From IMG/VR virus record IMGVR_UViG_3300042196_000409: a DNA stretch of 64,000 nucleotides. The stretch is one strand, 5' to 3'. The number at the start of each line of letters is the position of its first letter. The first letter of the stretch is position 1. Both the position numbers and the translations under genes were made by a program. Positions 14,563 through 28,501 of this stretch are shown piece by piece. Below the pieces are notes generated by a model, which saw only the letters and a program-made list of their open reading frames with translations, had not been told where the DNA came from and ran no database searches. The DNA is from a virus.

Positions 14563-14578
14563 CTGAAGAAGTTTTTCT

Positions 14579-15066: not shown

Positions 15067-15069
15067 CCT

Positions 15070-15110: not shown

Positions 15111-15111
15111 A

Positions 15112-15183
15112 CGGGGTGTAGCGAAGTGGTATCGCGCTGCGTTCGGGACGCAGAGACCGCTGGTTCGATCCCAGTCACCCCGA
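15112..15183 (+). tRNA. tRNA-Pro(CGG)
   Basis: Acceptor CGGGGTG/CACCCCG. Perfect anticodon stem CTGCG/CGCAG. Loop ttCGGga. Confidence 0.7.
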
Positions 15184-15201
15184 CGATTGGATGCTGGATA
15201 T

Positions 15202-15310
15202 GGGCGTGGTGGCGGCACGGATGCGGGTTCGATCCCCGTCGGGTCCACGACGGGCCCGTGGCTGGTGCCTACGGAGATATCCACCAGGGGTTCGACTCCC
15301 CTCGCGTCCA
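15202..15310 (+). ncRNA. ~110-nt tRNA-like RNA with G3-U70 acceptor and tmRNA-type T-arm
   Basis: 5' GGGCGTG pairs with 3' CGCGTCC. T-arm AGGGGTTCGACTCCCCT is identical to the tmRNA T-arm at 47.56 kb. Internal GGGTTCGATCCCC second T-like loop. Confidence 0.3.
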
Positions 15311-15316
15311 CGACAC

Positions 15317-15389
15317 GGAGGACAGTTCACCTAGGGGTGATGGCGGTCCTACAAACCGCTCGCGGTCGGTGCAATCCCGACGTTCTCTA
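15317..15389 (+). tRNA. tRNA-Val(TAC)
   Basis: Acceptor GGAGGAC/GTTCTCT with wobbles. Perfect anticodon stem GCGGT/ACCGC. Loop ccTACaa. T-loop TGCAATC. Confidence 0.55.
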
Positions 15390-15396
15390 CGATGAC

Positions 15397-15467
15397 GTCT
15401 CGTTAGCACAGCGGTAGTGCAGTCGCTTGATAAGCGGCCGACGAAGGTTCGACCCCTTCACGAGACA
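15397..15467 (+). tRNA. tRNA-Ile(GAT)
   Basis: Acceptor GTCTCGT/ACGAGAC. Loop ttGATaa. T-arm GAAGGTTCGACCCCTTC. Confidence 0.7.
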
Positions 15468-15476
15468 CGACGGCCT

Positions 15477-15547
15477 GGGCCTCTAGTTCAATGGAGAACG
15501 TCTGCCTTATCAGCGGAATGTTGAGGGTGCAAATCCTTCGGGGCCTA
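15477..15547 (+). tRNA. tRNA-Ile(TAT)-like (anticodon assignment uncertain)
   Basis: Acceptor GGGCCTC/GGGGCCT. Loop ctTATca. T-loop TGCAAAT. Confidence 0.4.
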
Positions 15548-15555
15548 CGATTCGT

Positions 15556-15629
15556 GGTGTGCGTAGTCATCTGGTGAAGACGCTGGGTTGTGGTCCCAGT
15601 TCAGGCGAGTTCGATCCTCGTCGCACACC
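15556..15629 (+). tRNA. tRNA-His(GTG) with G-1
   Basis: Extra 5' G pairs with C73. Perfect anticodon stem CTGGG/CCCAG. Loop ttGTGgt. Confidence 0.7.
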
Positions 15630-15635
15630 CTGTCT

Positions 15636-15710
15636 CGAGCAGTAGCTTAGCCTGGCTAAAGCGTTGGTCTGGGGGACCAAAGATCGCAGGTTCAAATCCT
15701 GTCTGCTCGA
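15636..15710 (+). tRNA. tRNA-Pro(GGG)
   Basis: Acceptor CGAGCAG/CTGCTCG. Perfect anticodon stem TTGGT/ACCAA. Loop ctGGGgg. Confidence 0.6.
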
Positions 15711-15787
15711 CGAAAGGAGAATGCGGCTGATCTACTGTCAGATCTGTCGCCAAGGAGCGTCTAGTCTACCGAAGGAGAACGAACGTC

Positions 15788-16324
15788 ATGGAGCCGACAC
15801 ATCAAACGCTTGTCCTTAGTCAGGGCTATGAGCCCGTTAAGATCGTTTCGTGGCAGCGCGCGATCACGATGCTCTTCCTCCACAAGGTCGAAGTGATCGA
15901 GGAGTACGATCGCAACATCAAGACGACGTCGTTCGTCGCCAAGATCCCCGCGGTCGTGCGGCTGCTCAAAGCGTTCCGTCGGTACAAGAAGCCGGTGAAG
16001 TTCTCCCGGATCAACATCTACGGCCGCGACAAGTACACCTGCCAGTATTGTGGCGTGAAGAAGTCGATCCACGATCTGACGTATGACCACATCGTGCCTC
16101 GATCGCGAGGCGGCAAGACGACGTGGACGAACATCGCAACGTGCTGCCAAGGCTGCAACGGCAGGAAGGCGAACCGTACGCCCGAGCAGGCCGGCATGCG
16201 TTTGCTCCAGGTGCCCGAGCAGCCAATCTCGTCGCCGGTGCTCGTCGTGACCGTGAGCCGCCAGTCTGCACCCGACGCGTGGCGCGACTACCTGTACTGG
16301 ACCGGCGAGCTGGACCAGGACTGA
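15788..16324 (+). CDS. HNH endonuclease (homing-type, embedded in the tRNA array)
   Basis: CQYCG..DLTYDHIVPRSRGGKTTWTNIATCCQGCNGRK contains the Cys4 zinc knuckle plus the HNH catalytic His/Asn. Confidence 0.8.
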   Translation: MEPTHQTLVLSQGYEPVKIVSWQRAITMLFLHKVEVIEEYDRNIKTTSFVAKIPAVVRLLKAFRRYKKPVKFSRINIYGRDKYTCQYCGVKKSIHDLTYDHIVPRSRGGKTTWTNIATCCQGCNGRKANRTPEQAGMRLLQVPEQPISSPVLVVTVSRQSAPDAWRDYLYWTGELDQD

Positions 16325-16349
16325 TCAAGCGAGCGACGTGCTCGCATCT

Positions 16350-16423
16350 GGGAACGTGGGAGAGATGGAGTCTCCGCCGGCCTGTCACGCCGGAGGTCGC
16401 GGGTTCAAGTCCCGTCGTTCCCG
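16350..16423 (+). tRNA. tRNA-Asp(GTC)
   Basis: Acceptor GGGAACG/CGTTCCC. Perfect anticodon stem CCGGC/GCCGG. Loop ctGTCac. Confidence 0.7.
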
Positions 16424-16528
16424 CCGATAGCGTGGTCGATCACCGCGCGTCGATGACTCATCCTCGCAAGGGGCTCCTTTTTGGGATGCCGCGCACGTCG
16501 AGCGCTCGGCGACGCGGCTGGGTCTTCT

Positions 16529-16599
16529 GGGTCCATCGTTCAAAGGGAGAACGCGGCGTTCGCAATGCCGAAATGCGAGTTCGAGTCTCGCTGGATCCA
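16529..16599 (+). tRNA. tRNA-Ala(CGC)
   Basis: Acceptor GGGTCCA/TGGATCC with G3-U70 Ala identity pair. Loop ttCGCaa. Confidence 0.6.
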
Positions 16600-16618
16600 C
16601 GTTACGTAGTCCTACGAA

Positions 16619-16690
16619 GGGGCTGTCTGTCCAACGGGAAGACGCGCGTCTGGCTGACGCGAGATGACGGTTCGATTCCGTTCAGCTCCA
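16619..16690 (+). tRNA. tRNA-Ala(GGC)
   Basis: Acceptor GGGGCTG/CAGCTCC with G3-U70. Anticodon stem CGCGT/ACGCG. Loop ctGGCtg. Confidence 0.55.
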
Positions 16691-16727
16691 CGATCGCTGC
16701 TCCGCCGTGCGGTGCCTACACGCAACC

Positions 16728-16806
16728 ATGATGCCTCAAGGTGAGGCGTCGGCCTATGGAGCCGAAGCAGTCAGGTTCAATTCCTGATCATCCCGCAAGG
16801 GATCGT
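16728..16806 (+). ncRNA. possible degenerate tRNA-like element
   Basis: T-arm TCAGGTTCAATTCCTGA and hairpin TCGGC-ctATGga-GCCGA are present. No pairing acceptor stem found by eye. Confidence 0.2.
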
Positions 16807-16834
16807 GCACCGTGCACTCGAGCAGCGAACACTT

Positions 16835-17086
16835 TCAGTGGCCATGGCAAGGGCCACGGCAGACCATGCATTCTTCCTCGAAGCTGTCGTCGAGGGTGTC
16901 TGCGCCAGGATGCGGATGGATCACTTCCTCTTCGAGGACGTCTCCAACCAAGGCATCGTTGGTGGTGGTAGCGCAGCGTGGACACAAGAGCATCGATTCA
17001 GCGTGCCGCCACGCCTGGGGGAACTGATCGATGGCGGTGATCTCCTGCGTCTTGCCACAGCGAGCGCACACAACGAATGTCGCCAT
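16835..17086 (-). CDS. small zinc-ribbon protein
   Basis: CARCGK...CPRC and CMVCRGPCHGH Cys clusters. Lies between tRNA genes on the opposite strand. Confidence 0.35.
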   Translation of the reverse strand: MATFVVCARCGKTQEITAIDQFPQAWRHAESMLLCPRCATTTNDALVGDVLEEEVIHPHPGADTLDDSFEEECMVCRGPCHGH

Positions 17087-17134
17087 GCTTCTACGCTACG
17101 TTACCGTCGGTATCACCGACAGTTTTTGGCTCTC

Positions 17135-17207
17135 GGGCAGGCATGTTCCAAGGGGGCGAGCGGGATTTGCAATCCTGCTGCGGCCGGTTCAATCCCGGTC
17201 CTGTCCA
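17135..17207 (+). tRNA. tRNA-Ala(TGC)
   Basis: Acceptor GGGCAGG/CCTGTCC with G3-U70. Loop ttTGCaa. Confidence 0.6.
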
Positions 17208-17415
17208 CGCGTCATGCTTACGCCGGCACCTCGCGATGTCTCCCGGCTCTACTCGGGATCGATTGCGGCGCGCCGACGAGCACAGCCTCGATGTCGGCTC
17301 TATGAGTTACGTCCGGGGCAACTCAAGCGGGCCGTCCGCGGGACTGTCTCCCCCGCTTTGCTAGCCGTTCGCTTGTGCCCGAGGATATCAGACCCAGCTC
17401 CGCGCTGTGTTTCTC

Positions 17416-17486
17416 GCCGCTATCGTCAAACAGTAAGACGCTGCTTTGGTAGGGCAGAAATCCGGGTGCGATTCCCGGTGGCGGCT
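17416..17486 (+). tRNA. tRNA-Thr(GGT)
   Basis: Acceptor GCCGCTA/TGGCGGC. Loop ttGGTag. T-arm CCGGGTGCGATTCCCGG. Confidence 0.6.
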
Positions 17487-17494
17487 CGAATCGA

Positions 17495-17565
17495 TCAGGG
17501 ATCGTCTAACGGTAGGACACGAGATTTTGGATCTCGGCATGAAGGTTCGATTCCTTCTCCCTGAA
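17495..17565 (+). tRNA. tRNA-Gln(TTG)
   Basis: U1-A72 acceptor TCAGGGA/TCCCTGA. Perfect anticodon stem CGAGA/TCTCG. Loop ttTTGga. Confidence 0.7.
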
Positions 17566-17569
17566 CCAT

Positions 17570-17641
17570 GCATGGGTCGCCAAGAGGCTAGGCACTTCTC
17601 TGCAAAAGAAGCACACGCGGGTTCGACTCCCGTCCCATGCT
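17570..17641 (+). tRNA. tRNA-Cys(GCA)
   Basis: Acceptor GCATGGG/CCCATGC. Perfect anticodon stem CTTCT/AGAAG. Loop ctGCAaa. Confidence 0.7.
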
Positions 17642-17645
17642 CCGC

Positions 17646-17720
17646 GCTCCTGACGCCCCATTGGAAGGGGTCTCTGTTTTCTAAACAGATCCGTTGCAGG
17701 TTCGAGCCCTGTCAGGAGCA
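17646..17720 (+). tRNA. tRNA-Arg(TCT)
   Basis: Acceptor GCTCCTG/CAGGAGC. Anticodon stem TCTGT/ACAGA. Loop ttTCTaa. Confidence 0.6.
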
Positions 17721-17729
17721 CGAGATCTT

Positions 17730-17802
17730 GGTCCCGTAGCCTAGTGGACGAGGCACGCGTTTCCTAAACGCGCTCACGCAGGTTCGAGTCCTGCCGGGAT
17801 CA
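17730..17802 (+). tRNA. tRNA-Arg(CCT)
   Basis: Acceptor GGTCCCG/CGGGATC. Perfect anticodon stem CGCGT/ACGCG. Loop ttCCTaa. Confidence 0.65.
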
Positions 17803-17827
17803 CGCACGTCATCATCGTCGACTTCAC

Positions 17828-17898
17828 GCCTCCGTACGTGGACGTGACCCGAGTTTCCGAAGCTTGGTGGGCTGGTTCAAATCCAGCCGGAGGCACCA
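17828..17898 (+). tRNA. atypical tRNA-like gene with encoded CCA (possible 9-nt anticodon loop)
   Basis: Perfect acceptor GCCTCCG/CGGAGGC followed by A-CCA. T-arm GCTGGTTCAAATCCAGC. Core folds only with stem CCGAG/CTTGG around the loop tttCCGaag. Confidence 0.35.
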
Positions 17899-17901
17899 TA
17901 C

Positions 17902-17973
17902 GTCGGTGTCGTTCAATGGTCAGGACCACGGCCTTTCACGCCGTAGATACGAGTTCGATTCTCGTCGCCGATA
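17902..17973 (+). tRNA. tRNA-Glu(TTC)
   Basis: Perfect anticodon stem ACGGC/GCCGT. Loop ctTTCac. T-arm ACGAGTTCGATTCTCGT. Confidence 0.55.
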
Positions 17974-17994
17974 CGATCTTCACGCACGTGCCAG

Positions 17995-18329: not shown

Positions 18330-20249
18330 ATGACGACAGCAGAGAAGTTGGGACCTGCGGAGAAGATTCTCCAGACGCTCCTGAATCACACGGACCACAT
18401 GGTCCACAACCGTCCCGGCATGGTGTCGCCGGATGCTCGTCACACGATCGGTGTGCGCTGGGTGTTCGTCACGCACAAGGAAGAGAACGGCCAGAAGGTC
18501 GTCTACGAGCTGACGAAGGTCGGCAAGAAGACGAACGAGATCCGCAGGGGCGTGATGCGCGCCGACGGCAAGGTCGAGGAGAACGGCAAGATCGTCGGCG
18601 AGTACCGCTCGCCTGGGCTGTTTCCCGAGGTCGCCGCCTGGATGTATCGCCAGGTCGCTGAGGTGTGGAAGATGGACAACGAGTTCGCGGCGCGCTGGGC
18701 GTCGTACGCGTTTGGCCAGGAGCACCGTGACCTCAAGGTCGTGCTCGCGGCCTTCATGCTCGTGCAGACGCGCAAGGGCGATCCCGTGCTCGACGGGGGC
18801 AAAGTCGCGTTCTACGACGACGACTTCCGCGACATCGGCGAAGCCATGATGCTTATCCACCGTCGGGACGGAAAGGATCTGAGCCCGAAGCTCCTGGTCC
18901 GCGTCCACGACCTTCTGAAGGTGCCGGGCGTCGCGGCCATCAACCGCGAGCTGGGCTTTGGTAACTCGGCGCGTCGCCCGTTCCTTGGCCGTTGGTCGAA
19001 GGCGGTCGAGAAGTGGCTCCAGTTTCGCGAGGAGAACCCCAGGATGCTCGACGGCCTCATCAAGGCCGGCTTCAAGAGTACCGTGAAGGATCTCGCGCGT
19101 ACGGTCGGCTACAAGCCTCAGACCCCGAAGTTCTTCGAGGCCCTCGGCTGGGCACAGGATCAGGCCAAGGACGGCCGGCGCTCGATCCTCATCGGCGTCG
19201 ATCTGGCCAAGGCCGAGACCTGGAACGATCTGACCGAGGCGCAGATCTGCGAGAAGATCGTCACCGAGAAGCCGGGCTGGAAGCGCATCGTCGGTCTCTT
19301 GCCGAAGAAGCTCGGGGTCACGCGCGCCATCATGAGCGCAGCCGTCGAGTCGAACGCGCTGTCCAACAAGGACCTCATCATTCTCACGCCCACGCTGGAG
19401 GAGCTGGGGCTCCTGGAGGTCAAGGAGGTCAAGGCGAAGTGGGAGCGCGCCCTCAAGAAGGCCGAGGACGACATGCGCGCGGGCAACATCGCGCGCAACG
19501 TGAAGTCCAAGGACGTGCAGGAGCAGCTCCAGGGAGCGGCCGACACGGCGCTCCAGAAGACGATGGAGGTGGCGACGCGCAACATGCGTATCTACGTCCT
19601 CATCGACATCTCCAGCTCGATGCAAGGTGCCATCGAGAGGGCGAAGACGCTGCTCGAGAAGTTCCTCCAGGGCTTCCCGCTCGATCGCACACACATCGCG
19701 ACGTTCAACACGGTGGGGCGCGTGATCGAGATCAAGCACGCTTCGGCGGCTGGCGTGGCCCAGGCATTCAAGGGTTTCACTGCCAGCGGGGGCACGACGC
19801 ACGGTGCAGGTGTGATGGCTCTTGCCCCGTTCCCGCCGAAGGAGGACGAAGACACGCTCTTCATCATCGTTGGCGACGGCGGCGAGAACTTGTCGTTCCA
19901 CACCTACGTCGAGCAGTCCAAGCTGCGTCCGATGGCCTTCGGCTTCCTGATGCTGCCTGGTCAGAACTACGGCGCACCGGAGAAGACGGCGGCACAGCTC
20001 GGCATTCCGTGCTTCAAGATCGAGCAGAACACGTTCGACGACGTCTACGCGATCCCGCGGACCATCCGCGCGCTCGTGGCGGCGACGCCGGTCGGTGCCG
20101 TGGCGCGTGCGGCGGCGACGCCGCGTGTGACGCTCGTCGAGACGATCCTCAAGACGGATCTGCTCAAGAAGCCTGCATGGGCGGCGACGGTCCGTGCGAT
20201 CGCCGCAGCGGACGCAGCACCCGCGGCGACGGCCGCGGCGACGGCCTAG
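18330..20249 (+). CDS. Ro60-like protein (alpha-helical TROVE-like N-region + C-terminal vWA/MIDAS domain)
   Basis: vWA MIDAS DISSSMQG..TASGGTTHG..IIVGDGGEN at residues ~415-560. ~410-aa helical N-region. Architecture and size match Ro60/Rsr; the TROVE assignment is inferred. Confidence 0.55.
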   Translation: MTTAEKLGPAEKILQTLLNHTDHMVHNRPGMVSPDARHTIGVRWVFVTHKEENGQKVVYELTKVGKKTNEIRRGVMRADGKVEENGKIVGEYRSPGLFPEVAAWMYRQVAEVWKMDNEFAARWASYAFGQEHRDLKVVLAAFMLVQTRKGDPVLDGGKVAFYDDDFRDIGEAMMLIHRRDGKDLSPKLLVRVHDLLKVPGVAAINRELGFGNSARRPFLGRWSKAVEKWLQFREENPRMLDGLIKAGFKSTVKDLARTVGYKPQTPKFFEALGWAQDQAKDGRRSILIGVDLAKAETWNDLTEAQICEKIVTEKPGWKRIVGLLPKKLGVTRAIMSAAVESNALSNKDLIILTPTLEELGLLEVKEVKAKWERALKKAEDDMRAGNIARNVKSKDVQEQLQGAADTALQKTMEVATRNMRIYVLIDISSSMQGAIERAKTLLEKFLQGFPLDRTHIATFNTVGRVIEIKHASAAGVAQAFKGFTASGGTTHGAGVMALAPFPPKEDEDTLFIIVGDGGENLSFHTYVEQSKLRPMAFGFLMLPGQNYGAPEKTAAQLGIPCFKIEQNTFDDVYAIPRTIRALVAATPVGAVARAAATPRVTLVETILKTDLLKKPAWAATVRAIAAADAAPAATAAATA

Positions 20250-20256
20250 CTTCGTT

Positions 20257-21195
20257 ATGGGGTGGCGCGATTTACTCCAGACGGGCGACGAGAAGGTGAC
20301 CCTTCCGTGGCTTGGCGGCAGGACGCTCTACTCCACTGCGCAGCGCTGGTCGATCGAAGGGCGCCTCCCGAAGGACTACGGGTGGCACACGTTCAAGATC
20401 GCCAACCGGGAAGCTCACGCACAAGGGCCAGCTGATCCGCAACCGGATCTGCTTCAGCATTCCGTGCGCGGTTACCTGGTTGGCGATCGCATCGTCGCGG
20501 ATGACGTCCGTGTCGATCCAGATCCCAAGGGCATCGTGAATTTCTCCGAGACGGTGTTCCTGCTCGACGAGGGCATCGATCGGTTCGCGCGTGTGCGCGC
20601 GGGGCGCATCAACAAGGAGGGCCCGCTGGTCTACCAGGGCCTCGAGATGCCGCTCGGCCAGGAGGACGCCGTGCTCGAAGCTTTCCTCGAACAGAAGACG
20701 TCGGTCGCGGACATCAAGAACGTACCGCCGGGGCTCGATGCGGCATTCCGCATGGAGAGCTGGCAGCGCGCCGAGGCCGAGCGTCGCCGCATCGAGCTGG
20801 AGCGCATCCGTTGTGAAGAGGAGGAGAAGCGTCAGAAGGAGGAGCGTCGCCAGGCGCTCGTGAAGAAGCTCGGGGACGGTGAAGGCCGTCGCGAGATGGC
20901 GCTCCACGACTTCGACGCTGCGGCACGCGCAGCACTCGCGGTGGGCGGCGCGGTCTTCCTCGACGCGAAGTCTGTGCGCAAGAACGAATGGGCGGTCCGC
21001 TACCGTATCGGTAACGACCGCCAGCGGTTCGAGTGCGTGTGCAACGAGCGCCTTCGCATCGTCGACGCGGGCATCTGTCTCGTCAATCACGCCACCGACG
21101 AGAGGGGCGACACTTTCTTCACGCTCGAATCACTCCCAGCCGTCGTGCAGCAGGCGCAGCGCGAGCGACGGCTGGTCATCTTTCGTCACGTGTAA
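20257..21195 (+). CDS. hypothetical protein
   Basis: Internal ATG (MGWRDLL) after an Arg-rich leader. Charged helical middle, ends ..QRERRLVIFRHV. Confidence 0.45.
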   Translation: MGWRDLLQTGDEKVTLPWLGGRTLYSTAQRWSIEGRLPKDYGWHTFKIANREAHAQGPADPQPDLLQHSVRGYLVGDRIVADDVRVDPDPKGIVNFSETVFLLDEGIDRFARVRAGRINKEGPLVYQGLEMPLGQEDAVLEAFLEQKTSVADIKNVPPGLDAAFRMESWQRAEAERRRIELERIRCEEEEKRQKEERRQALVKKLGDGEGRREMALHDFDAAARAALAVGGAVFLDAKSVRKNEWAVRYRIGNDRQRFECVCNERLRIVDAGICLVNHATDERGDTFFTLESLPAVVQQAQRERRLVIFRHV

Positions 21196-21212
21196 GAACC
21201 ACCGGAGGAGTC

Positions 21213-21443
21213 ATGAGCAAACCAAAGTACAAGGTCGGCGACAGCGTTACCATCGACATCGGCTGGGAGCGTGTCGTGCCTCGCAAGGTGCTCATCTCTG
21301 AGGTGCGCGCTGATCACGGCAGACAGGGGGCGCACCGCTATTTTGGAAGTGGTGACGGTGGCGAGCACGGCTTCTACGAAGATCAGATTCTGGTCGAAGG
21401 GCGTGATCGAGTTTCACGCGCGGACTGGGAGGCGCCTCTGTGA
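21213..21443 (+). CDS. small hypothetical protein (76 aa)
   Basis: MSKPKYKVGDSVTIDIGWERVV.. Flanked by a ~45-bp direct repeat that duplicates the 3' end of the upstream gene. Confidence 0.4.
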   Translation: MSKPKYKVGDSVTIDIGWERVVPRKVLISEVRADHGRQGAHRYFGSGDGGEHGFYEDQILVEGRDRVSRADWEAPL

Positions 21444-21506
21444 AGAGGCCGAGCATCGTGCAGCGCGAGCGAAGGCTGGTCATCTTCCGTCACGTGTGAG
21501 CTCACC

Positions 21507-22208
21507 ATGAAGCCCTACTATTTTCGCTCAGGTTTTGGCGACATCGTGCTCGACGATGTTCTCAACAGCACGCCGTGGATCAAGGTCACGGACGCGCGGT
21601 TGGAATGCTTCATGTCGGCACGCACGGAGACGTACACCTACGGCGAAGGCCGCGGCGTTCGGACGTACACGCCCGTTCCGTACTCGCCTCTCGTGGCGGA
21701 CATCCAGCGCCAGCTCAACCGTGACGGCCTGGAGCGCGAGACGCTCGATGACGTCTACATGTACAACGTATGTTTCCTGAATCGCTACGACAACGCGGCG
21801 ATGCAGCTTGGGTGGCACTCGGACGACTCACCGGGGATGGACCACGAGCATCCCATCGCAGTCGTGTCGTTCGGGCAGCCGCGCGAGATCTGGTGGCGTG
21901 AGAAGGGCCAGACCGGAGTCATCCCAGCTGATCAGCGTCAGCTTCTCGAGCACGGCTCCATCTTTGTGATGCCGGCGGGCATGCAGCGCACCCACCAGCA
22001 CCGCATCCCGAAGGGTGACAAGCCGATGGGCTTGCGCGTCTCGCTCACCTACCGGCACTACGACCCCGAAGAGGCATGGCGCGCGACGCACCGTACGCTG
22101 CTTGAGACCGCGAAGTTCGAGACCCAGTCGATGGCTGTCGATCTTCACGTTGAGGTTCACCGCGGCCTTGACGTCGTTCTTGCAAACGCAGCCCAGCCAA
22201 AGGAATAG
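21507..22208 (+). CDS. alkB: AlkB-family 2OG-Fe(II) dioxygenase
   Basis: Fe-binding HxD (LGWHSDD) and distal His (HQHRIP). AlkB-type RVSLTYR 2OG-binding Arg. ~230 aa. Confidence 0.75.
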   Translation: MKPYYFRSGFGDIVLDDVLNSTPWIKVTDARLECFMSARTETYTYGEGRGVRTYTPVPYSPLVADIQRQLNRDGLERETLDDVYMYNVCFLNRYDNAAMQLGWHSDDSPGMDHEHPIAVVSFGQPREIWWREKGQTGVIPADQRQLLEHGSIFVMPAGMQRTHQHRIPKGDKPMGLRVSLTYRHYDPEEAWRATHRTLLETAKFETQSMAVDLHVEVHRGLDVVLANAAQPKE

Positions 22209-22212
22209 GCCC

Positions 22213-22797
22213 GTGAAGTTCTCAGACATCAAGCTCACGGACATCGGCACCACGATCCAGATGGTCGGTGCCGTCTACGCCGACGGAAGTGGCAAGGGCT
22301 ACTACTTCGCCTTTCCGTCGACGAGCGGCGAGGGTGCGAATCCCGAGCACGTCGAGATGACGAACGAGGACTGGAAGGTCATGCTTCGGCAGGCCGACGT
22401 GGTCGAGGTCGAGGCGACGGTGCAGGCCGAGAACGGAGAGCTTCAGAAGGCGATCGTTCGCAAGAGCCAGCGCCAGATCGATTCGCAGGTCTCGTGGAAC
22501 GTCTTTCGGCGGGACAACTTCATGTGCCGTTACTGCGGCACCGAGAAGCTGTCGCTGACGGTCGATCACCTCGTGCGTTGGGAGGACGGCGGTCCTTCGA
22601 TCGAGGAGAACCTTGTCGCGTGCTGCCGAAAGTGCAACAAGGTCCGCGGTGACACGGCGTACGCGGCGTGGCTGCGGCACCCGTACTATCTGGAGAAATC
22701 GCGAAGTGTCTCCGGCGCGTACCAGCAGCTCAACCAGCGTGTTGCCGACACTCTCGCGAACATCCCCCGTGTTCACATCAAGAAGGGCCGCTCATGA
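22213..22797 (+). CDS. fusion protein: unknown N-domain + C-terminal HNH nuclease domain (first gene of the Ubl/JAB/E1 cassette)
   Basis: GTG start. C-terminal CRYCG..LTVDHLVRWEDGG..NLVACCRKCNKVRGD matches HNH. Stop overlaps the next start (ATGA). Confidence 0.55.
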   Translation: MKFSDIKLTDIGTTIQMVGAVYADGSGKGYYFAFPSTSGEGANPEHVEMTNEDWKVMLRQADVVEVEATVQAENGELQKAIVRKSQRQIDSQVSWNVFRRDNFMCRYCGTEKLSLTVDHLVRWEDGGPSIEENLVACCRKCNKVRGDTAYAAWLRHPYYLEKSRSVSGAYQQLNQRVADTLANIPRVHIKKGRS

Positions 22798-23183
22798 TCG
22801 AAGCTGGTGTAGTCATCGACAAGAACGGAAGCCCGCTGTTCTGGCACCTGCCCGAGGGTCGTACCGGAGGGAGCCTTCCCGACAGCCGGACCCTGTGGCA
22901 GGTTCTCTGGGACGCGTTCCAGGAAGACACGCTGCGCGGTTTCGCGCACAGTCACCCGGGCTCCGGCGTTCCCGGCCCCTCGTACTCGGACGTCACGACG
23001 TTCGCGGCCGTCGAGGCCGCGCTCGGCAAGCGCCTCGACTGGTGGATCACCAGCTCGGACCACGTGGTCGAGGTCTGTTGGGCCGGACCGGACAAACTTT
23101 CATACCGCTCCACGATCGTTACGGAGGCACCGTCGTGGGTAGCGGAACTGCGACGCCTCTCTCAGCAAGGACAAGGACAATGA
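22794..23183 (+). CDS. JAB/MPN (JAMM) metallopeptidase
   Basis: JAMM motif HSHPGSGVPGPSYSD (HxHx7Sx2D) with an upstream Glu. ~130 aa. Translationally coupled on both sides. Confidence 0.7.
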   Translation: MIEAGVVIDKNGSPLFWHLPEGRTGGSLPDSRTLWQVLWDAFQEDTLRGFAHSHPGSGVPGPSYSDVTTFAAVEAALGKRLDWWITSSDHVVEVCWAGPDKLSYRSTIVTEAPSWVAELRRLSQQGQGQ

Positions 23184-23521
23184 ACGAGATCAAGGACAAC
23201 GAGGCGCGCGTCAACATCACGTACGGCGGCAAGAACGGCGACCTGCCGGATCCCGTCTTCTTCCAGTCGACGGACGGTGACGTCAAGAATTGGGTCACCG
23301 AGGCAGTCCGTGCCGGCACGGTGCCAGGGCTCGATGCGGCACCGACCGCGGACTTCGGTGACTTTGTCATCGATCGTTTCGCGGCGGACGCGACGCGTCC
23401 CTACAACTTGATCCAGGTCCGGCCGAAGACGCCGTTCGGGTTCGCCTCGTGCGATCACTGCAAGGTGTGCTTCTACCGGGCTCTGGGGCTCGGGTGCTGC
23501 GCCTGCCCGACGAAGAAGTAA
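23180..23521 (+). CDS. small protein, candidate ubiquitin-like/sulfur-carrier precursor (C-terminal ..ALGLG-CCACPTKK)
   Basis: 113 aa. Lies between JAB and E1 genes with ATGA/TAATG overlaps. The C-terminus has Gly-Leu-Gly then a short Cys-rich extension, as in JAB-processed ThiS/Ubl precursors. Fold is unverified. Confidence 0.4.
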   Translation: MNEIKDNEARVNITYGGKNGDLPDPVFFQSTDGDVKNWVTEAVRAGTVPGLDAAPTADFGDFVIDRFAADATRPYNLIQVRPKTPFGFASCDHCKVCFYRALGLGCCACPTKK

Positions 23522-23528
23522 TGCAGCC

Positions 23529-24107
23529 ATGGCCGCCATGATCGTCATCGTCGGCGTCGGAGCTCTGGGCAGTCACCTGGTCCAGTTCATTCGTAACGAG
23601 AAGGTGGACATCCGCATCATCGACTTCGATCGCGTCGAGCAGAAGAATGTGATGTCGCAGTTCCACGGCAAGCCTGGCGTGGGCAAGAACAAGGTCGCTG
23701 CCCTCCAGCAGACGATGGACTTCTTGTTCAAGCGCCAGCTCGCGGTGGTGAGCAACAAGCTCGTCGCCGACAACATCGACGTGCTCATGAAGGGCGCGAC
23801 GCTGGTCGTCGACTGCCTCGACAACGGCGCCTCGCGGAAGCTCGTGCAGGACTACGTGCGCAAGCACAACCTGCCGTGTCTTCACGGCGCGCTCGCTCCG
23901 GGCGGCGAGTTTGGTCGCGCGATCTGGGACGAGAAGTTCGTGATCGACAGCGAGGTCGGTGCGGGTGCGGTGACGTGCGAGGACGGGGAGTTCCTTCCTT
24001 TCATCGCGCTCACGGCCGGGTTCATGGCGCGCTCGATCCAGCTCTTCTTGAAGGAGGAGAAGAAGATCGGATTCTCGATCTCGCCCGTCGGTGTGATCGC
24101 CATCTGA
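23529..24107 (+). CDS. ThiF/MoeB/E1-like adenylyltransferase (short form)
   Basis: Rossmann motif IVGVGALGS. E1-type IIDFDRVEQKNVMSQ (Arg finger and Asp). Ends LPCLHGAL. 192 aa. Confidence 0.65.
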   Translation: MAAMIVIVGVGALGSHLVQFIRNEKVDIRIIDFDRVEQKNVMSQFHGKPGVGKNKVAALQQTMDFLFKRQLAVVSNKLVADNIDVLMKGATLVVDCLDNGASRKLVQDYVRKHNLPCLHGALAPGGEFGRAIWDEKFVIDSEVGAGAVTCEDGEFLPFIALTAGFMARSIQLFLKEEKKIGFSISPVGVIAI

Positions 24108-24301
24108 ACGCTCTTGACAGTGGTTCGTGTAGCCGCTAAGGTCACAACCAGCTCGGCCACCACCCGAGAGTCCTCACAAGCCTTGGGTTCAACTCCCATC
24201 AAATTCCCGCAAGGGGATATGACAGCCAGGCGGTCTTGGCACCTGTCTTGTAAACAGGCTGAAAAGCAACCAGGACTCTCAACTCGGTGGCCAAGTGTTT
24301 T

Positions 24302-24423
24302 GGCGGATAAGGGACGCGGGTCCCACTTCTCTCATAAGGAAGCATCCCGACAGCGGCACTCGTCTTCGCGAGGAGACACCCGTCGAATGTCTACAAGCCG
24401 CTTGGTTCGACTCCAAGATCCGC
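24302..24423 (+). ncRNA. ~120-nt tRNA-like RNA with ~57-nt insertion between anticodon arm and T-arm
   Basis: Acceptor GGCGGAT/ATCCGCC. T-arm CTTGGTTCGACTCCAAG. D hairpin GGGAC-GCGG-GTCCC. Loop ctCATaa. Too long for a canonical tRNA. Confidence 0.3.
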
Positions 24424-24454
24424 CTCTGAGAAGCAGCCATTCCCTAGTGTGCTT

Positions 24455-24526
24455 ACACGCATAGCTCAACGGTAGAGCATCGGCCTACGAAGCCGAAGGT
24501 TGGGACTTCAAAACTCCCTGCATTCA
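24455..24526 (+). pseudogene. degenerate tRNA-Arg(ACG)-like element
   Basis: Canonical D-arm GCTCAACGGTAGAGC and anticodon arm TCGGC-ctACGaa-GCCGA. T-loop is 9 nt and the acceptor strands do not pair. Confidence 0.3.
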
Positions 24527-24567
24527 ACAAAGCACTCTTCACTCGGCTGCCCTCTAATTTCCTGACG

Positions 24568-24598
24568 CAAGAGCCGCGAAAGCGGCTCTTGTCGTTTC
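24568..24598 (+). terminator. rho-independent terminator
   Basis: Hairpin CAAGAGCCGC-GAAA-GCGGCTCTTG followed by TCGTTTC. Confidence 0.55.
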
Positions 24599-25328
24599 AC
24601 GAGTGCGCAGTGTCCCGCGCTATGCTCGATCGCATGGACGGCCACGCCCTTCTCGGACACCTGGCGCTTTGTGCTGGCATCATCGGCGACGGCGGCCCGC
24701 GCGCGTATCGCCGTCGCGGCTCTCCGCTGCTGGAGAAGTATCTGCCTGGCCGTTTCCTTGCTGGACTACGTCCCGAGATTCGCGCTGACGTCGTGCAGGC
24801 CGCGAATACTACGCAGACGTCGCCCGCGCCGTGGTTCTTGCGCCTGGTCGTCGACGAGCAAGAGCACCGCGTCGCGTTGCCTTCGCCGCCGATCGATCGG
24901 CGATGGAGCTGCCGTGGTAGGTGGTCCGCAACACCAGGGATACGGTGAGCTGATCGATGTCACGCATGCCGCTTGTCTCGGTAGTGTTCTACATCGCGAC
25001 GCGCCTCCATCTGGACGGCGATGTCGTGGACGCGAGCATGGTGGAGCTGTTCGGCCGAGCTGGAGTGTATCTCGCGTCACGGCAGCTCGTGGATGACGGC
25101 GTGCACGGAGAGGACACGCGTCCCGAGCTACAGGGCTGAGCGAATGCGGACAAGCGCTCAATGGGCGTTTGGCGCGCTCTTGGACTACTGGGATCGCTGG
25201 AGCTCCGCTCGTCGATCGGTGTGGCTCAAACTTCCGCGGCGTCCTAAATCCGCAGCTCTCACGTTTGCTCTCGCCGCCGTGGCCTCTGTCGCTCCATGCA
25301 CGCCGTTGGTGCGGTACAACCGCTTTCG

Positions 25329-27442: not shown

Positions 27443-27523
27443 GCGTCAATGGTGGAACAAGCAGACACGGTGCTCCTAAAAAGCACTGCTCATGGCATGA
27501 GGGTGCAAATCCCTCTTGACGCA
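27443..27523 (+). tRNA. tRNA-Leu(TAA), type II
   Basis: Acceptor GCGTCAA/TTGACGC. Perfect anticodon stem GTGCT/AGCAC. Loop ccTAAaa. 12-nt variable-arm hairpin. T-loop TGCAAAT. Confidence 0.6.
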
Positions 27524-27530
27524 CGTTTCC

Positions 27531-27607
27531 GTCGCGATAGCCCAACTGGAAGCGGCAGTGGTCTGAGGGGCCATTCAGTGCGGGTTCGAATCCCGCTCGC
27601 GACACCA
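27531..27607 (+). tRNA. tRNA-like gene with encoded CCA (anticodon not resolved by eye)
   Basis: Perfect acceptor GTCGCGA/TCGCGAC plus A-CCA. T-arm GCGGGTTCGAATCCCGC. Confidence 0.4.
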
Positions 27608-27626
27608 TCAAGGAAGGAGGAGCCCC

Positions 27627-28187
27627 ATGACGCAGCAAGTTTGGTTCACGAGCGACACTCATTTCGGCCACACGAACATCGTGAAGTACAGCGGGCGTCC
27701 GTGCGCTGACGTGCACGAGATGAACGAAGCGCTCGTCCTCAACTGGAACGCGGTCGTGAAGCCCGGCGACCTCGTGTATCACGTCGGCGACTTCGCGCTC
27801 TGCGACGTCGAGGCCGCGACGAAGATCGTGAAGCGCCTTGCAGGCCAGAAGTACCTCGTGTTTGGAAACCACGACAAGGCGCTGCGCAAGGACAAGATCT
27901 TCCTCGGGCACTGGATCTGGGCGAAGGACATGGCGGACATCACGGTCGGATCGCAGCGCATCGTGCTCCTGCACTACGCGATGCGCGTGTGGAACCAGAG
28001 CCACCGTGGCGCTTGGCAGTTGCACGGACACTCGCACGGTTCGCTCAAGGAGGAACCGCACTTGCTCCAGGCGGACGTCGGCGTGGACTGCTGGAACCAA
28101 CGTCCGGTTTCGTTCGAGGAGCTCGTCACGAAGATGGCGACGAAGAATTATCAGCCCGTCGATCATCACGGGCGTCAAGACGAGTGA
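27627..28187 (+). CDS. calcineurin-like metallophosphoesterase
   Basis: Motifs DTHFGH, GDF, GNHD, GHSHG in canonical order. 186 aa. Confidence 0.75.
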   Translation: MTQQVWFTSDTHFGHTNIVKYSGRPCADVHEMNEALVLNWNAVVKPGDLVYHVGDFALCDVEAATKIVKRLAGQKYLVFGNHDKALRKDKIFLGHWIWAKDMADITVGSQRIVLLHYAMRVWNQSHRGAWQLHGHSHGSLKEEPHLLQADVGVDCWNQRPVSFEELVTKMATKNYQPVDHHGRQDE

Positions 28188-28214
28188 CTGATCGAACTCC
28201 GCCTAGTACGTTTC

Positions 28215-28290
28215 GCCGACGTAGCCCAACTTGGTAGCAGGCAATGCGCTTAGATCGCATCCAGTGCTGGTTCAAATCCAGTCGTCGGCA
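28215..28290 (+). tRNA. class-I-shaped tRNA with Leu anticodon TAG
   Basis: Acceptor GCCGACG/CGTCGGC. Perfect anticodon stem ATGCG/CGCAT. Loop ctTAGat. 5-nt variable loop. T-arm GCTGGTTCAAATCCAGT. Confidence 0.5.
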
Positions 28291-28424
28291 CGATGAAAAA
28301 AGAAAGCCTACTCGCGTCGACGTCGCACATGCACTACTGGCGGCCCGAGGGGGCGGGTGTTCGTGCAGAGGCGCGACGATAGCTTTCGGCTTGCAGTGAC
28401 CTTCGCAGACAGCTCTGACACCAC

Positions 28425-28501
28425 GTCGTCGTGGTCCAACGGGTAGAGGCGTCCCGCTCAAGACGGGAAAGTTGCGGGTTCAAATCCCGCCGACGACACC
28501 A
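28425..28501 (+). tRNA. class-I-shaped tRNA with Leu anticodon CAA, encoded CCA
   Basis: Acceptor GTCGTCG/CGACGAC. Perfect anticodon stem TCCCG/CGGGA. Loop ctCAAga. 5-nt variable loop. T-arm GCGGGTTCAAATCCCGC. Confidence 0.5.

What the first reader, a model, noticed from the sequence alone, without database searches (positions are those of the whole stretch)
24114..24560. tRNA-like/structured RNA cluster downstream of the Ubl cassette, including a 120-nt tRNA-like RNA with a 57-nt insertion: candidate Y-RNA-like or novel ncRNAs
The 450-nt region has no convincing ORF but contains several anticodon-arm-like hairpins (CTCGG-ccaccac-CCGAG; CCTGT-cttgtaa-ACAGG; TCGGC-ctACGaa-GCCGA) and T-loop-like GGTTCAACTCC/GGTTCGACTCC motifs. 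One element (24302-24423) pairs a perfect acceptor with a perfect T-arm around a long insertion. None folds as a standard tRNA. Bacterial and phage Y RNAs have tRNA-like modules, and a Ro60-like protein is encoded 4 kb upstream. A canonical terminator at 24568 closes the unit.
Basis: partly seen in the sequence, partly recalled or inferred. Interest (0 to 1): 0.6.

Follow-up and report, generated by a model that had tools for sequence, protein, structure and literature searches.

The report
Phage tRNA-mimic RNA operon, Y-RNA-like
The 450-base gap holds a promoter followed by three conserved tRNA-shaped non-coding RNAs that share one unusual stalk; arrays of such RNAs sit beside a Ro60-like gene module in hundreds of huge phages, so they are probably a divergent relative of bacterial Y RNAs, not broken tRNAs.

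Summary
Window 24114-24597 is one apparent transcription unit, inferred from sequence only. It has a conserved TTGACA-N17-TAAGGT promoter-like site, three back-to-back structured RNAs and a GC hairpin with a T-rich tail. E1 (24152-24301) is a circularly permuted tRNA mimic: T arm, closed acceptor hairpin, D arm, anticodon-like arm. Its 5' and 3' ends pair into a two-helix stalk. E3 (24302-24424) is the unpermuted form, with an open 7-bp acceptor and the same stalk, GNRA-capped, in the variable-arm position. E4 (24433-24562) carries the stalk on the acceptor end of a tRNA body, which ARAGORN and Rfam call tRNA-Arg(ACG).

All three share an invariant signature: ACUC|G before helix P1, and YACAMGC after helix S. 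Covariation over 26-54 relatives supports every helix. Arrays of 1-8 such RNAs flank a conserved module (Ro60-like VWA protein, orf333, Ubl-like protein, ThiF-like E1) in 47 of 49 and 43 of 51 sampled phage loci, almost always on the same strand.

They fail Rfam YrlA and lack its GNCGAA motif. I therefore file them as a new variant of Y-RNA-like tRNA mimics. Binding to the Ro60-like protein is inferred, not shown. Their "anticodons" differ between close relatives, so they are unlikely to decode.

The parts
24114..24142 (+). Promoter-like site: TTGACA (24114-24119), 17-nt spacer, TAAGGT (24137-24142)
   Evidence: TTGACA-N16-19-TAnnnT lies upstream of the first RNA in 20 of 56 relatives. Background for TTGACW is 6%. 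It is strictly conserved in the close relatives L071, L072, L073 and L075. The consensus scan does not call it. Function is inferred.
24152..24301 (+). E1, a circularly permuted tRNA mimic with a terminal stalk. P1 24155-24161/24286-24292. Internal loop ACCC 24162-24165 / AACTC 24281-24285. S 24166-24174/24272-24280. Junction CACAAGCC 24175-24182. T arm 24184-24198. Closed acceptor hairpin 24200-24221 (loop GCAA). D arm 24225-24240. Anticodon-like arm 24242-24258 (loop CTTGTAA). T-run 24298-24301.
   Evidence: Model R1 scores 113.2 bits. Among 54 relatives, P1 is paired in 95.5% of cells, the T arm 99.2%, the AC arm 97.8% and the D arm 87%. The covariation score is 0.613, against 0.185 for shuffles. 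The MFE fold reproduces the structure, z -4.06.
24302..24424 (+). E3, an unpermuted tRNA mimic. Acceptor 24302-24308/24418-24424. D-like hairpin GGGAC-GCGG-GTCCC 24311-24324. Anticodon-like arm 24326-24342 (loop CTCATAA). Closed stalk in the variable-arm position: S 24349-24357/24382-24391, ACTC 24358-24361, P1 GTCTTC-GCGA-GGAGAC 24362-24377, ACCC 24378-24381. Junction ACAAGC 24393-24398. T arm 24401-24417.
   Evidence: On a MAFFT alignment of 26 relatives that was not fitted to the structure, 90.5% of cells pair, 32 of 36 pairs change on both sides, and covariation is 0.611 against 0.206. Model R2 scores 127.8 bits here and finds 109 copies in 76 loci. The MFE fold is identical to the comparative structure.
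24433..24562 (+). E4, a tRNA body with the stalk on its acceptor end. P1 24433-24438/24545-24550. S 24446-24453/24531-24538. Junction TACACGC 24454-24460. D arm 24464-24478. Anticodon arm 24480-24496 (ACG). T arm 24502-24518. TCACTC 24539-24544. T-rich tail to 24562.
   Evidence: ARAGORN calls tRNA-Arg at 24454-24528. Rfam tRNA scores 47.4 bits with 3 mismatched acceptor pairs. In 30 relatives P1, D, AC and T are 97% paired, with covariation 0.689 against 0.223. Helix S is 5-8 bp in most of 60 copies. In a partner-swap control the native median is 5 bp against 4.
24570..24597 (+). Terminator-like hairpin AGAGCCGC-GAAA-GCGGCTCT followed by TGTCGTTT
   Evidence: Read directly from the sequence. 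The consensus scan does not call it. L072 has an analogous GC hairpin plus a T-run after its E4.
18330..20249 (+). Ro60-like protein (helical repeats plus a VWA domain), 639 aa. It is the first gene of the conserved module.
20257..24107 (+). Rest of the conserved module: orf333 (20257-21195), the variable AlkB-like (21507-22208) and HNH (22015-22797) genes, a Ubl-like small protein (about 23180-23521) and a ThiF/E1-like protein (23529-24107)
   Evidence: Pfam hits are. The order Ro-like, orf333, orf302 C-terminus, ThiF is conserved in ThiF-anchored loci and in Ro-anchored loci. Relatives' gene calls show a 115-aa ORF abutting ThiF.
16694..16828 (+). E5, a fourth stalk-bearing tRNA mimic with a different topology, 1.5 kb upstream of the Ro60-like gene. 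P1 TCGCTGCTC/GAGCAGCGA. S GTGCGGTGC/GCACCGTGCAC. Then CTACACGC, a D-like hairpin, an AC arm (ATG), a T arm and a closed hairpin ATCCC-GCAA-GGGAT.
   Evidence: It carries both signature motifs and a 9-bp P1. MFE z is -5.08. ARAGORN calls its core 'tRNA-His(atg) 16726-16794'. No homologue was found in the loci held, so the evidence comes from this one sequence.

Best explanation
SHOWN.
- The interval encodes three conserved, structured, tRNA-shaped non-coding RNAs in a row, apparently one transcription unit. A fourth member lies at 16694-16828.
- Each RNA joins a tRNA-like cloverleaf to the same stalk. The stalk has an outer helix P1 of free sequence, closed by a C-G pair. Next comes a roughly 4x4-5 internal loop, A-N-C-C opposite (A)ACUC. 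Then comes an inner helix S, followed by the invariant string Y-A-C-A-(A/C)-G-C.
- The stalk is attached at different points of the tRNA scaffold. In E1 it is at the variable-arm position with open ends and a closed acceptor, which makes E1 a circular permutation. In E3 it is at the variable-arm position but capped by a tetraloop. In E4 it is at the acceptor end. In E5 it lies between the acceptor and the D arm.
- Arrays of these RNAs flank a conserved four-gene module (Ro60-like VWA protein, orf333, Ubl-like protein, ThiF/E1-like protein) on the same strand throughout a large clade of huge phages.

INFERRED.
- The RNAs work like Y RNAs of the YrlA kind. The conserved stalk would be the docking site for a module protein, most plausibly the Ro60-like one.
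- The tRNA-shaped domain is constrained in shape but free in sequence and in 'anticodon'. It would mimic tRNA to recruit or block a tRNA-binding factor: a host exonuclease such as PNPase, RNase P, a CCA-adding or modification enzyme, or a tRNA-targeting defence nuclease.
- tRNA-processing enzymes acting at the E3 acceptor probably separate the three RNAs.
For: Structure:
- Covariation supports all helices: E1, 54 sequences; E3, 26 sequences, alignment not fitted to the structure; E4, 30 sequences.
- MFE folds agree with the comparative structures.
- In a partner-swap control, P1 has a native median of 8-9 bp against 5.
- Signature columns are 98-100% invariant in both E1 and E3 alignments.

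Linkage:
- 47 of 49 ThiF-anchored loci carry 1-8 elements.
- In Ro-anchored IMG/VR loci, model R2 hits 43 of 51 loci, and 95 of its 97 hits are on the gene strand. All 33 R1 hits are on the gene strand.
- In divergent clades the RNAs lie directly upstream of the Ro60-like gene instead of after ThiF, for example L189 9026-9766 against a gene start at 10001.
- The triad E1-E3-E4 is kept in close relatives.

Ro60-like fold.

YrlA resemblance:
- Partial YrlA hits on relatives' E1 copies.
- Published YrlA traits: permuted tRNA mimic, within 4 kb of Ro60 on the same strand, several copies per genome, some with a 7-bp acceptor and CCA (PMC4201824; bioRxiv 10.1101/312249). Phage Ro60 binds adjacent Y-like RNAs (PMC12135203).

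Not decoders:
- U33 occurs in only 49-83% of 7-nt loops. 'Anticodons' are diverse, with many A34.
- Close relatives differ at the same position: E1 TGT/ACG/CGA, E3 CAT/AAC/CAA, E4 ACG/CGT/GAT.
Against: - There are no expression or binding data.
- Rfam YrlA is not reached: no hit in the window at E<=10 and none in 9 further loci.
- The YrlA and phage Yrl 'CGAA / GNCGAAN0-1G' Ro motif is not enriched in the family.
- The RNAs usually abut the ThiF-like gene, not the Ro60-like one, so the partner could be another module protein.
- Many relatives encode NCCA exactly where a tRNA 3' end would be. That fits a processed, perhaps chargeable, tRNA-like molecule as well.
Confidence: 0.5

Rival explanations
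1. They are unconventional tRNA genes: permuted (E1), carrying a stalk 'intron' in the variable region (E3), or flanked by a leader-trailer duplex (E4). The conserved stalk would be a processing signal. After cleavage, with or without ligation, and RNase P / 3'-end processing, they would become chargeable tRNA-like or tRNA molecules.
For: - NCCA lies exactly 7 nt after the T stem in 20 of 54 E1-type copies.
- NCCA follows the acceptor in 29 of 109 E3-type copies, and NCC in 54 of 109, against a chance rate of 1.6%.
- Anticodon-like loops are 7 nt in 81-97% of copies, with R37 in about 90-97%.
- E4-type cores pass Rfam tRNA.
- The layout matches permuted pre-tRNAs, as discussed in bioRxiv 10.1101/312249.
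Against: - U33 occurs in only 49% (E3) and 70% (E1) of loops. There are many A34 'anticodons', and the anticodon differs between relatives with 85-94% identical proteins.
- The window copies lack CCA. E1's acceptor is sealed by a GCAA tetraloop.
- Removing the stalk from E3 would leave a variable loop of about 15 nt.
- The internal loop is not a bulge-helix-bulge motif.
- The 'anticodons' duplicate ordinary tRNAs already in the window.
- The stalk is the most conserved part of each RNA, which is odd for discarded sequence.
Confidence: 0.2
2. They are tRNA decoys or sponges. They would soak up host tRNA-targeting defence nucleases or tRNA-binding enzymes. The stalk would only stabilise them or mark them for processing, independently of the Ro60-like protein.
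For: - The cloverleaf shape is conserved while anticodon-loop sequences turn over fast.
- They occur in multi-copy arrays of up to 8.
- They sit in a phage region dense with tRNA, tmRNA and RNA-repair-type genes such as AlkB-like.
Against: - This does not explain the invariant ACUC|G and YACAMGC signature.
- It does not explain the strict same-strand linkage to the four-gene module at either of its ends.
- No known anticodon-nuclease target loop is conserved.
Confidence: 0.12
3. They are substrates or cofactors of the adjacent Ubl-like / ThiF(E1)-like pair. Examples would be a sulfur-relay or adenylation reaction on the tRNA-like RNA (compare TtuB/TtuC, Urm1/Uba4 and TcdA), with the stalk as the recognition handle.
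For: - In most loci the array starts 45-360 nt after the ThiF-like stop codon.
- The ThiF-like protein's best solved relatives include MoeB (1e-12), the tRNA-modifying TcdA (1e-9) and Uba4.
- The T loop and R37/A38 are conserved.
Against: - No tRNA thiolase or PP-loop enzyme was identified in the module. orf333 has no recognisable fold.
- The ThiF-like protein is a generic minimal E1, and every NCBIfam hit is far below its cutoff.
- In divergent clades the RNAs sit next to the Ro60-like gene, 4-11 kb from ThiF.
Confidence: 0.1
4. They are decaying tRNA pseudogenes, or chance hairpins, in an intergenic gap.
For: - E4's acceptor and T stems carry mismatches.
- ARAGORN misses E1 and E3.
Against: - Compensatory changes occur in all helices across dozens of relatives.
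- Non-tRNA motifs are invariant.
- The family has more than 100 copies, with conserved position and strand.
Confidence: 0.03

Closest known systems
YrlA (Y RNA-like A, Rfam RF02553), the tRNA-mimicking Y RNAs of bacteria and phages that partner Ro60/Rsr
   Same: - E1 has the hallmark order: T arm, closed acceptor-like hairpin, D arm, with the RNA ends paired into a long stem that holds an internal loop.
- It is encoded on the same strand near a Ro60-like gene (3.9 kb away).
- There are several paralogues per genome.
- Some relatives have a 7-bp acceptor plus CCA, like M. smegmatis YrlA.
- The design is modular: a protein-binding stem plus a tRNA-like effector domain.
   Different: - It fails the Rfam threshold (no hit here; 24-26 of 69 bits in two relatives).
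- It keeps a full anticodon-like stem-loop.
- The terminal stem leaves from the variable-loop position, not the anticodon-stem position.
- The GNCGAA motif is absent from the family. The invariant motifs ACUC|G and YACAMGC are different.
- It co-exists with unpermuted (E3) and acceptor-linked (E4) forms that bear the same stalk.
- The partner protein is too divergent for the Pfam TROVE model and comes with a Ubl/E1 pair.
Thermus phage phiLo Ro60 with Yrl1/Yrl2 (PMC12135203), and the Ro60/Y-RNA loci of mycobacteriophages, CcrColossus and Bacillus phage G (PMC4201824)
   Same: - A phage-encoded Ro60-type protein has adjacent small structured RNAs on the same strand.
- In divergent relatives of this window the RNAs sit directly upstream of the Ro60-like gene, as in phiLo.
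   Different: - The phiLo Yrls were picked by their stem-bulge-stem shape and a CGAA motif, and are not described as tRNA-like.
- Here the RNAs are full cloverleaf mimics in arrays, and CGAA is not conserved.
Circularly permuted tRNA genes (Cyanidioschyzon merolae type) and permuted two-piece tmRNA genes
   Same: In many relatives E1 has the gene order T arm, acceptor 3' strand, NCCA, linker, acceptor 5' strand, D arm, anticodon arm, with leader and trailer paired.
   Different: - There is no bulge-helix-bulge motif at the junction.
- The anticodon loops are degenerate and not conserved between orthologues.
- There is no tag reading frame.
- The window copy has a sealed GNRA-capped acceptor without CCA.
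Long-variable-arm tRNAs (tRNA-Sec, tRNA-Ser, allo-tRNAs; PMC5389517)
   Same: E3 is a 7/5 cloverleaf with a compact D arm (5-bp stem, 4-nt loop with GG), an extra arm between the anticodon and T arms, and polymorphic anticodons.
   Different: - The extra arm spans about 43 nt (about 58 nt lie between the anticodon and T arms), has two helices and an invariant internal loop, and recurs in non-tRNA topologies.
- U33 is present in only about half of the copies.

Membership tests
YrlA (Rfam RF02553) | Scores at or above the Rfam gathering threshold (69 bits) | tested here: not met
   There is no YrlA hit in window 23900-24800 or 24105-24310 at E<=10. Relatives give partial hits only: 24.5 bits (L001) and 26.5 bits (L003), covering model positions 30-81. 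Nine further loci holding at least 12 E1-type copies gave no hit.
YrlA (Rfam RF02553) | T stem-loop, then a closed acceptor-like stem-loop, then a D stem-loop, with the 5' and 3' ends paired in a long stem | tested here: met
   E1 has this order and shows covariation in 54 relatives. The MFE fold agrees.
YrlA (Rfam RF02553) | The stem leading to the Ro60-binding module takes the place of the anticodon stem, and there is no anticodon loop (bioRxiv 10.1101/312249) | tested here: not met
   E1 keeps a 5-bp stem with a 7-nt loop after the D arm (97.8% paired). The terminal stalk leaves between that arm and the T arm.
YrlA (Rfam RF02553) | GNCGAAN0-1G motif on the 5' strand (PMC4201824) | tested here: not met
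   The motif occurs in 1 of 53 E1-type, 7 of 108 E3-type and 0 of 30 E4-type copies, about as expected from shuffles for CGAA itself. The window's E3 does carry GTCGAATG (24382-24389), but only its close clade shares it.
YrlA (Rfam RF02553) | Encoded within about 4 kb of a Ro60 orthologue, on the same strand | tested here: inconclusive
   The distance (3.9 kb) and the strand fit, and linkage is conserved. However, the protein is Ro60-like only at fold level and has no TROVE Pfam hit.
YrlA (Rfam RF02553) | Bound by Ro60/Rsr in vivo | not testable with these tools
   This needs RIP or EMSA.
tRNA (Rfam RF00005) | Scores above the Rfam or ARAGORN threshold as a cloverleaf | tested here: inconclusive
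   The E4 core scores 47.4 bits and is called by ARAGORN. E1 and E3 are not called.
tRNA (Rfam RF00005) | Functional anticodon loop (U33, R37), with the anticodon conserved between orthologues | tested here: not met
   U33 is present in 70%, 49% and 83% of loops (E1, E3, E4). There are many A34 triplets. The triplet differs between close relatives.
tRNA (Rfam RF00005) | Seven-bp acceptor stem with free ends and a 3' CCA (encoded or added) | tested here: inconclusive
   E3 has a perfect 7-bp acceptor but is followed by TCTG. E1's acceptor is closed. In E4, 3 of 7 pairs are non-canonical. Relatives often encode NCCA. CCA addition cannot be tested here.
Circularly permuted tRNA genes | The 3' half (T arm, acceptor 3' strand, CCA) precedes the 5' half, with a bulge-helix-bulge motif at the leader-trailer junction | tested here: not met
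   The order is met, and NCCA is present in 20 of 54 relatives. However, the junction is a symmetric internal loop of about 4x4-5 nt between two helices, not a BHB motif. The window copy has no CCA.
Ro60 / TROVE proteins (for the 18330-20249 protein) | TROVE (HEAT-repeat ring) domain detectable by sequence | tested here: not met
   Pfam finds only VWA families, below cutoff. NCBIfam and PHROGs give nothing relevant. phmmer against PDB sequences finds no Ro60.
Ro60 / TROVE proteins (for the 18330-20249 protein) | Whole-length fold: helical-repeat ring followed by a VWA domain | tested here: inconclusive

The most novel reading that the evidence does not exclude
This is a previously undescribed phage ribonucleoprotein system. 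A single conserved protein-docking stalk (ACUC|G ... YACAMGC) is grafted onto at least four different positions of a tRNA scaffold, including a circular permutation. The resulting tRNA mimics are encoded in arrays at either end of a Ro60-like / orf333 / ubiquitin-like / E1-like gene module in huge phages. The system would couple tRNA mimicry to Ro-type RNA surveillance and ubiquitin-like chemistry, for example to hijack or disarm host tRNA-processing or tRNA-targeting defence.
Probability: 0.25. Interest if true: 0.8.

Novelty: new variant of a known kind. Interest (0 to 1): 0.6.

Why it matters
Y RNAs and Ro60 are conserved from bacteria to humans, yet it is still unsettled what the tRNA-like domain of bacterial Y RNAs binds. 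This family may help in three ways.

- It supplies hundreds of natural variants in which the same stalk is attached to a tRNA-shaped domain in different orientations and topologies. That amounts to a natural mutagenesis series for separating docking from effector function.
- It extends Ro60-type systems to a large clade of huge phages (about 1,900 homologues of the protein). Standard tools miss both partners there: Pfam misses the protein, and Rfam misses the RNAs or mislabels them as tRNA.
- It links these systems to a ubiquitin-like/E1 pair.

There is also a practical consequence. tRNA counts for such phages are inflated by mimics, such as the 'tRNA-Arg' at 24454 and the 'tRNA-His(atg)' at 16726.

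Tried and rejected
1. I first read GGTTCGTG (24122-24129) as a Ro-binding GGUCCGA-like motif paired with CAACU. Comparison showed it is promoter spacer between TTGACA and the -10 box. A viral-contig pattern built on it returned only chance coding hits, L004-L007.
2. Two more pattern scans of viral contigs returned 60 loci. Only L014, L016 and L049 were real; the rest were chance matches in genes.
3. megablast of the region against INPHARED phages found nothing. A protein search found one relative, Virus Rctr197k.
5. CGAA / GNCGAANG as a family motif was rejected.
6. orf333 gave a good AF2 model (pLDDT 83) but no PDB fold match at E<=0.001. PHROGs and NCBIfam were empty for orf333, the Ubl-like protein and the downstream ORFs.
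7. The consensus promoter/terminator scan found nothing in 23900-24800.
8. MAFFT mis-aligned helix S in E1 and E4 and the closed acceptor in E1. The pair percentages for those helices (66%) are therefore lower bounds. I used per-sequence and partner-swap tests instead.
9. A loose descriptor scan of the whole window for further stalks gave mostly chance hits. Only the stalks at 16717, 24175 and 24392 are credible.
10. No homologue of E5 was found in any held locus.
Full report
**Setting**

The window is about 62% G+C and carries 42 tRNA-type calls and a tmRNA. Its 639-aa protein at 18330-20249 is identical to one on a 328,796-bp metagenome contig. Relatives sit on contigs of 100-620 kb. This is a huge phage. 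The only relative in the annotated phage collection is Virus Rctr197k.

**What is in 24114-24597**

ARAGORN and Rfam call only one element, tRNA-Arg(ACG) at 24454-24528. It scores 47.4 bits, but 3 of its 7 acceptor pairs and one T-stem pair are non-canonical. No Y_RNA, YrlA, tmRNA or other Rfam family matches the rest, even at E<=10.

Relatives gave the first lead. In Rctr197k and in an IMG/VR contig, the syntenic region gives partial, sub-threshold YrlA hits of 24.5 and 26.5 bits, covering model positions 30-81. Those positions are the T arm, a closed acceptor hairpin and the D arm.

I then fetched 80 metagenome loci around homologues of the adjacent ThiF-like gene. I later added 55 IMG/VR loci around homologues of the Ro60-like gene and three close relatives.

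**Anatomy from comparison**

Downstream of the ThiF-like stop codon, the close relatives keep cTTGACA, a 17-nt spacer and a TAnnnT box. A TTGACW-N16-19-TAnnnT site precedes the first detected RNA in 20 of 56 loci. The background for TTGACW alone is 6%. So window 24114-24142 is promoter-like and is not RNA. This overturned my own early reading of GGTTCG as a Ro motif. Three RNAs follow.

E1 (24152-24301):
- Helix P1: GGCCACC/GGTGGCC.
- Internal loop: ACCC opposite AACTC.
- Helix S: GAGAGTCCT/AGGACTCTC.
- Junction: CACAAGCC.
- Then a T arm, a closed acceptor hairpin (GCAA loop), a D arm, an anticodon-like arm, and a T-run.

E3 (24302-24424):
- Open acceptor GGCGGAT/ATCCGCC.
- A compact D-like hairpin and an anticodon-like arm.
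- The same stalk folded back on itself and capped by GCGA: S, ACTC, P1, ACCC, S.
- Then ACAAGC and the T arm.

E4 (24433-24562):
- P1 GCAGCC/GGCTGC and S AGTGTGCT/AGCACTCT.
- Junction TACACGC.
- D, anticodon and T arms in normal order, then TCACTC and the P1 3' strand.

A GC hairpin with a T-rich tail (24570-24597) closes the unit. The consensus scan called neither this hairpin nor the promoter. MFE folding of each RNA on its own reproduces these structures, with z -4.06, -2.39 and -2.43.

**Is the structure real?**

- E3: on a MAFFT alignment of 26 relatives that was not fitted to any structure, 90.5% of cells pair. Both sides change in 32 of 36 pairs. The covariation score is 0.611, against 0.206 for shuffles and at most 0.19 for slid partners.
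- E4: on a MAFFT alignment of 30 relatives, P1, D, AC and T are 97% paired, with covariation 0.689 against 0.223.
- E1: a covariance model found 54 copies of at least 58 bits. P1 is 95.5% paired with all seven pairs changing on both sides. The T arm is 99.2%, the AC arm 97.8% and the D arm 87% paired. S and the closed acceptor are 66%, which I attribute to register errors.
- Per-sequence searches find P1 of 7-13 bp with unrelated sequences in different relatives. With partners swapped between sequences, median P1 drops from 8-9 to 5 bp and S from 5 to 4.

These are not decayed pseudogenes.

**The shared signature**

In both the E1 (54) and E3 (109) alignments, certain columns are nearly invariant:
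- C-U-C before P1 is 99-100% conserved.
- The following G is 92-98% conserved, and the P1 closing C-G pair 91-96%.
- After S comes Y-A-C-A-(A/C)-G-C, with A, C, A and G at 98-100%.

The stalk module and the T arm are the most conserved parts. The rest of the cloverleaf keeps its pairing but not its sequence.

**tRNA mimic or tRNA?**

Anticodon-like loops are 7 nt in 81-97% of copies, and R37 is present in about 90-97%. U33 is present in only 70% (E1), 49% (E3) and 83% (E4). The triplets are diverse and include many with A34. Relatives with 85-94% identical proteins carry different triplets at the same position. The window's triplets (TGT, CAT, ACG) duplicate ordinary tRNAs in the same window. 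Decoding is therefore unlikely.

On the other hand, NCCA occurs exactly 7 nt after the T stem in 20 of 54 E1-type copies. It follows the acceptor in 29 of 109 E3-type copies, and NCC does so in 54 of 109. Chance is 1.6%. Many members thus look like permuted or normal tRNA genes with an encoded 3' end. This is reminiscent of M. smegmatis YrlA, which is cut by RNase P and receives CCA (bioRxiv 10.1101/312249). The window copies lack CCA.

**Genomic linkage**

tblastn shows the order Ro60-like, orf333, (variable AlkB-like/HNH), Ubl-like, ThiF-like. It holds in every ThiF-anchored locus with enough upstream sequence (38 loci) and in nearly all Ro-anchored loci, down to 40% identity.

- Of 49 non-redundant loci with at least 700 nt after ThiF, 47 hold 1-8 elements. 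Orders include 134, 314 and 3134.
- In the Ro-anchored set, the E3 model hits 43 of 51 loci. Of its 97 hits, 95 are on the gene strand. All 33 E1 hits are on the gene strand.
- In the more divergent clades the RNAs lie directly upstream of the Ro60-like gene rather than after ThiF.
- In the window itself a fourth stalk-bearing mimic, E5 (16694-16828, z -5.08), lies 1.5 kb upstream of that gene. I found no homologue of it.

**The protein partner**

By sequence, the 639-aa protein shows only sub-threshold VWA hits and no match to solved Ro60. Its AF2 model (pLDDT 76) has an N-terminal beta domain, about 300 residues of helices and a VWA domain.

orf333 has no fold match. The ThiF-like protein is a generic minimal E1, with best PDB sequence hits to MoeB, TcdA and Uba4.

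**Interpretation**

Published work fits E1 well:
- YrlA RNAs are permuted tRNA mimics encoded within 4 kb of Ro60 on the same strand, often in several copies, including in 22 phages (PMC4201824).
- Phage phiLo Ro60 binds two adjacent Y-like RNAs and forms ternary complexes with them and host PNPase in gel-shift assays (PMC12135203).
- A subset of jumbo phages is known to carry TROVE proteins with a tRNA-like partner (PMC7824862).

Defining YrlA features nevertheless fail here:
- The Rfam threshold is not reached.
- The GNCGAA motif is not a family feature.
- The stalk does not sit at the anticodon-stem position.

I therefore say the RNAs work like YrlA-type Y RNAs, with confidence about 0.5, and I do not file them as members of that family. 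I rank three alternatives below this: processed unconventional tRNAs, decoys, and substrates of the Ubl/E1 pair. None is excluded.

**Novelty**

I found no description of this family in the papers searched. It is a new variant of a known kind. The new points are:
- one stalk grafted at several positions of the tRNA scaffold;
- the unpermuted form;
- the array organisation;
- the Ubl/E1 association.

Noticed in passing
window 16694-16828 (+): A fourth stalk-bearing tRNA mimic (E5) with yet another topology: stalk, then a D-like hairpin, an AC arm (ATG), a T arm and a closed GCAA-capped hairpin. ARAGORN reports its core as an odd 69-nt 'tRNA-His(atg)'. Its MFE z is -5.08. No homologue was found in the held loci.
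   Followed up: partly
window 17118-17205 (+): A cloverleaf-like fold: GACAG/CTGTC closing stem, a 9-bp hairpin, and a T arm GGCCGG-TTCAATC-CCGGTC. It is followed by ACCTCG and TACTCGG strings that resemble the stalk's 3' motif. The z-score is only -0.31 and no tool calls it. It may be a degenerate family member.
   Followed up: partly
window 41391-41464 (-): ARAGORN calls a tRNA with a four-base anticodon (tata), and Rfam tRNA scores it 54.3 bits. It lies next to tRNA-Met and tRNA-Ile(aat). It could be a tRNA with an 8-nt anticodon loop, of the frameshift-suppressor type, or a mis-call.
   Followed up: no
window 18330-24107 (+); L148-L202: The four-gene module (Ro60-like VWA protein, orf333, a small Ubl-like protein ending ...RPKTPFG plus a Cys-rich tail, and a minimal ThiF/E1-like protein) is conserved down to 40% identity across huge-phage contigs. 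orf333 has two beta domains joined by a long coiled coil (pLDDT 83) and no PDB fold match.
   Followed up: partly
window 21507-22797 (+); L205 12736-13674: The space between orf333 and the Ubl-like gene is a hotspot for insertions. This window has an AlkB-like 2OG-Fe(II) oxygenase and an HNH endonuclease there. Some relatives have HNH only, and L205 has a LAGLIDADG endonuclease between the Ubl-like and ThiF-like genes.
   Followed up: no
L016 6948-7027 (-): A mini tRNA-like element sits just upstream of an E1-type RNA. It has a 6-bp acceptor GGACTC/GAGTCC, one hairpin and a T arm, and is followed by GCTGCTCGC. ARAGORN calls it tRNA-??? with a 2-nt anticodon. This locus holds family members inside a tRNA/tmRNA array, with no Ro60-like or ThiF-like gene in the 12.5 kb held.
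   Followed up: no
window 24114-24464 (+): A 116-aa TTG-start ORF spans the promoter, E1 and E3, and ends inside E4. The alignments of E1 and E3 show paired compensatory changes and length-variable loops, which fits RNA rather than coding constraint. An automatic gene caller could annotate it as a hypothetical protein.
   Followed up: partly
window 47548-47910 (-) and 13084-17974, 27443-28501 (+): A phage-encoded tmRNA (173.6 bits, tag ANDNNGAVALAAA) and large tRNA arrays. Several tRNA calls have unusual A34 anticodons: Ile-aat at 41166-41239 and His-atg at 16726-16794.
   Followed up: no
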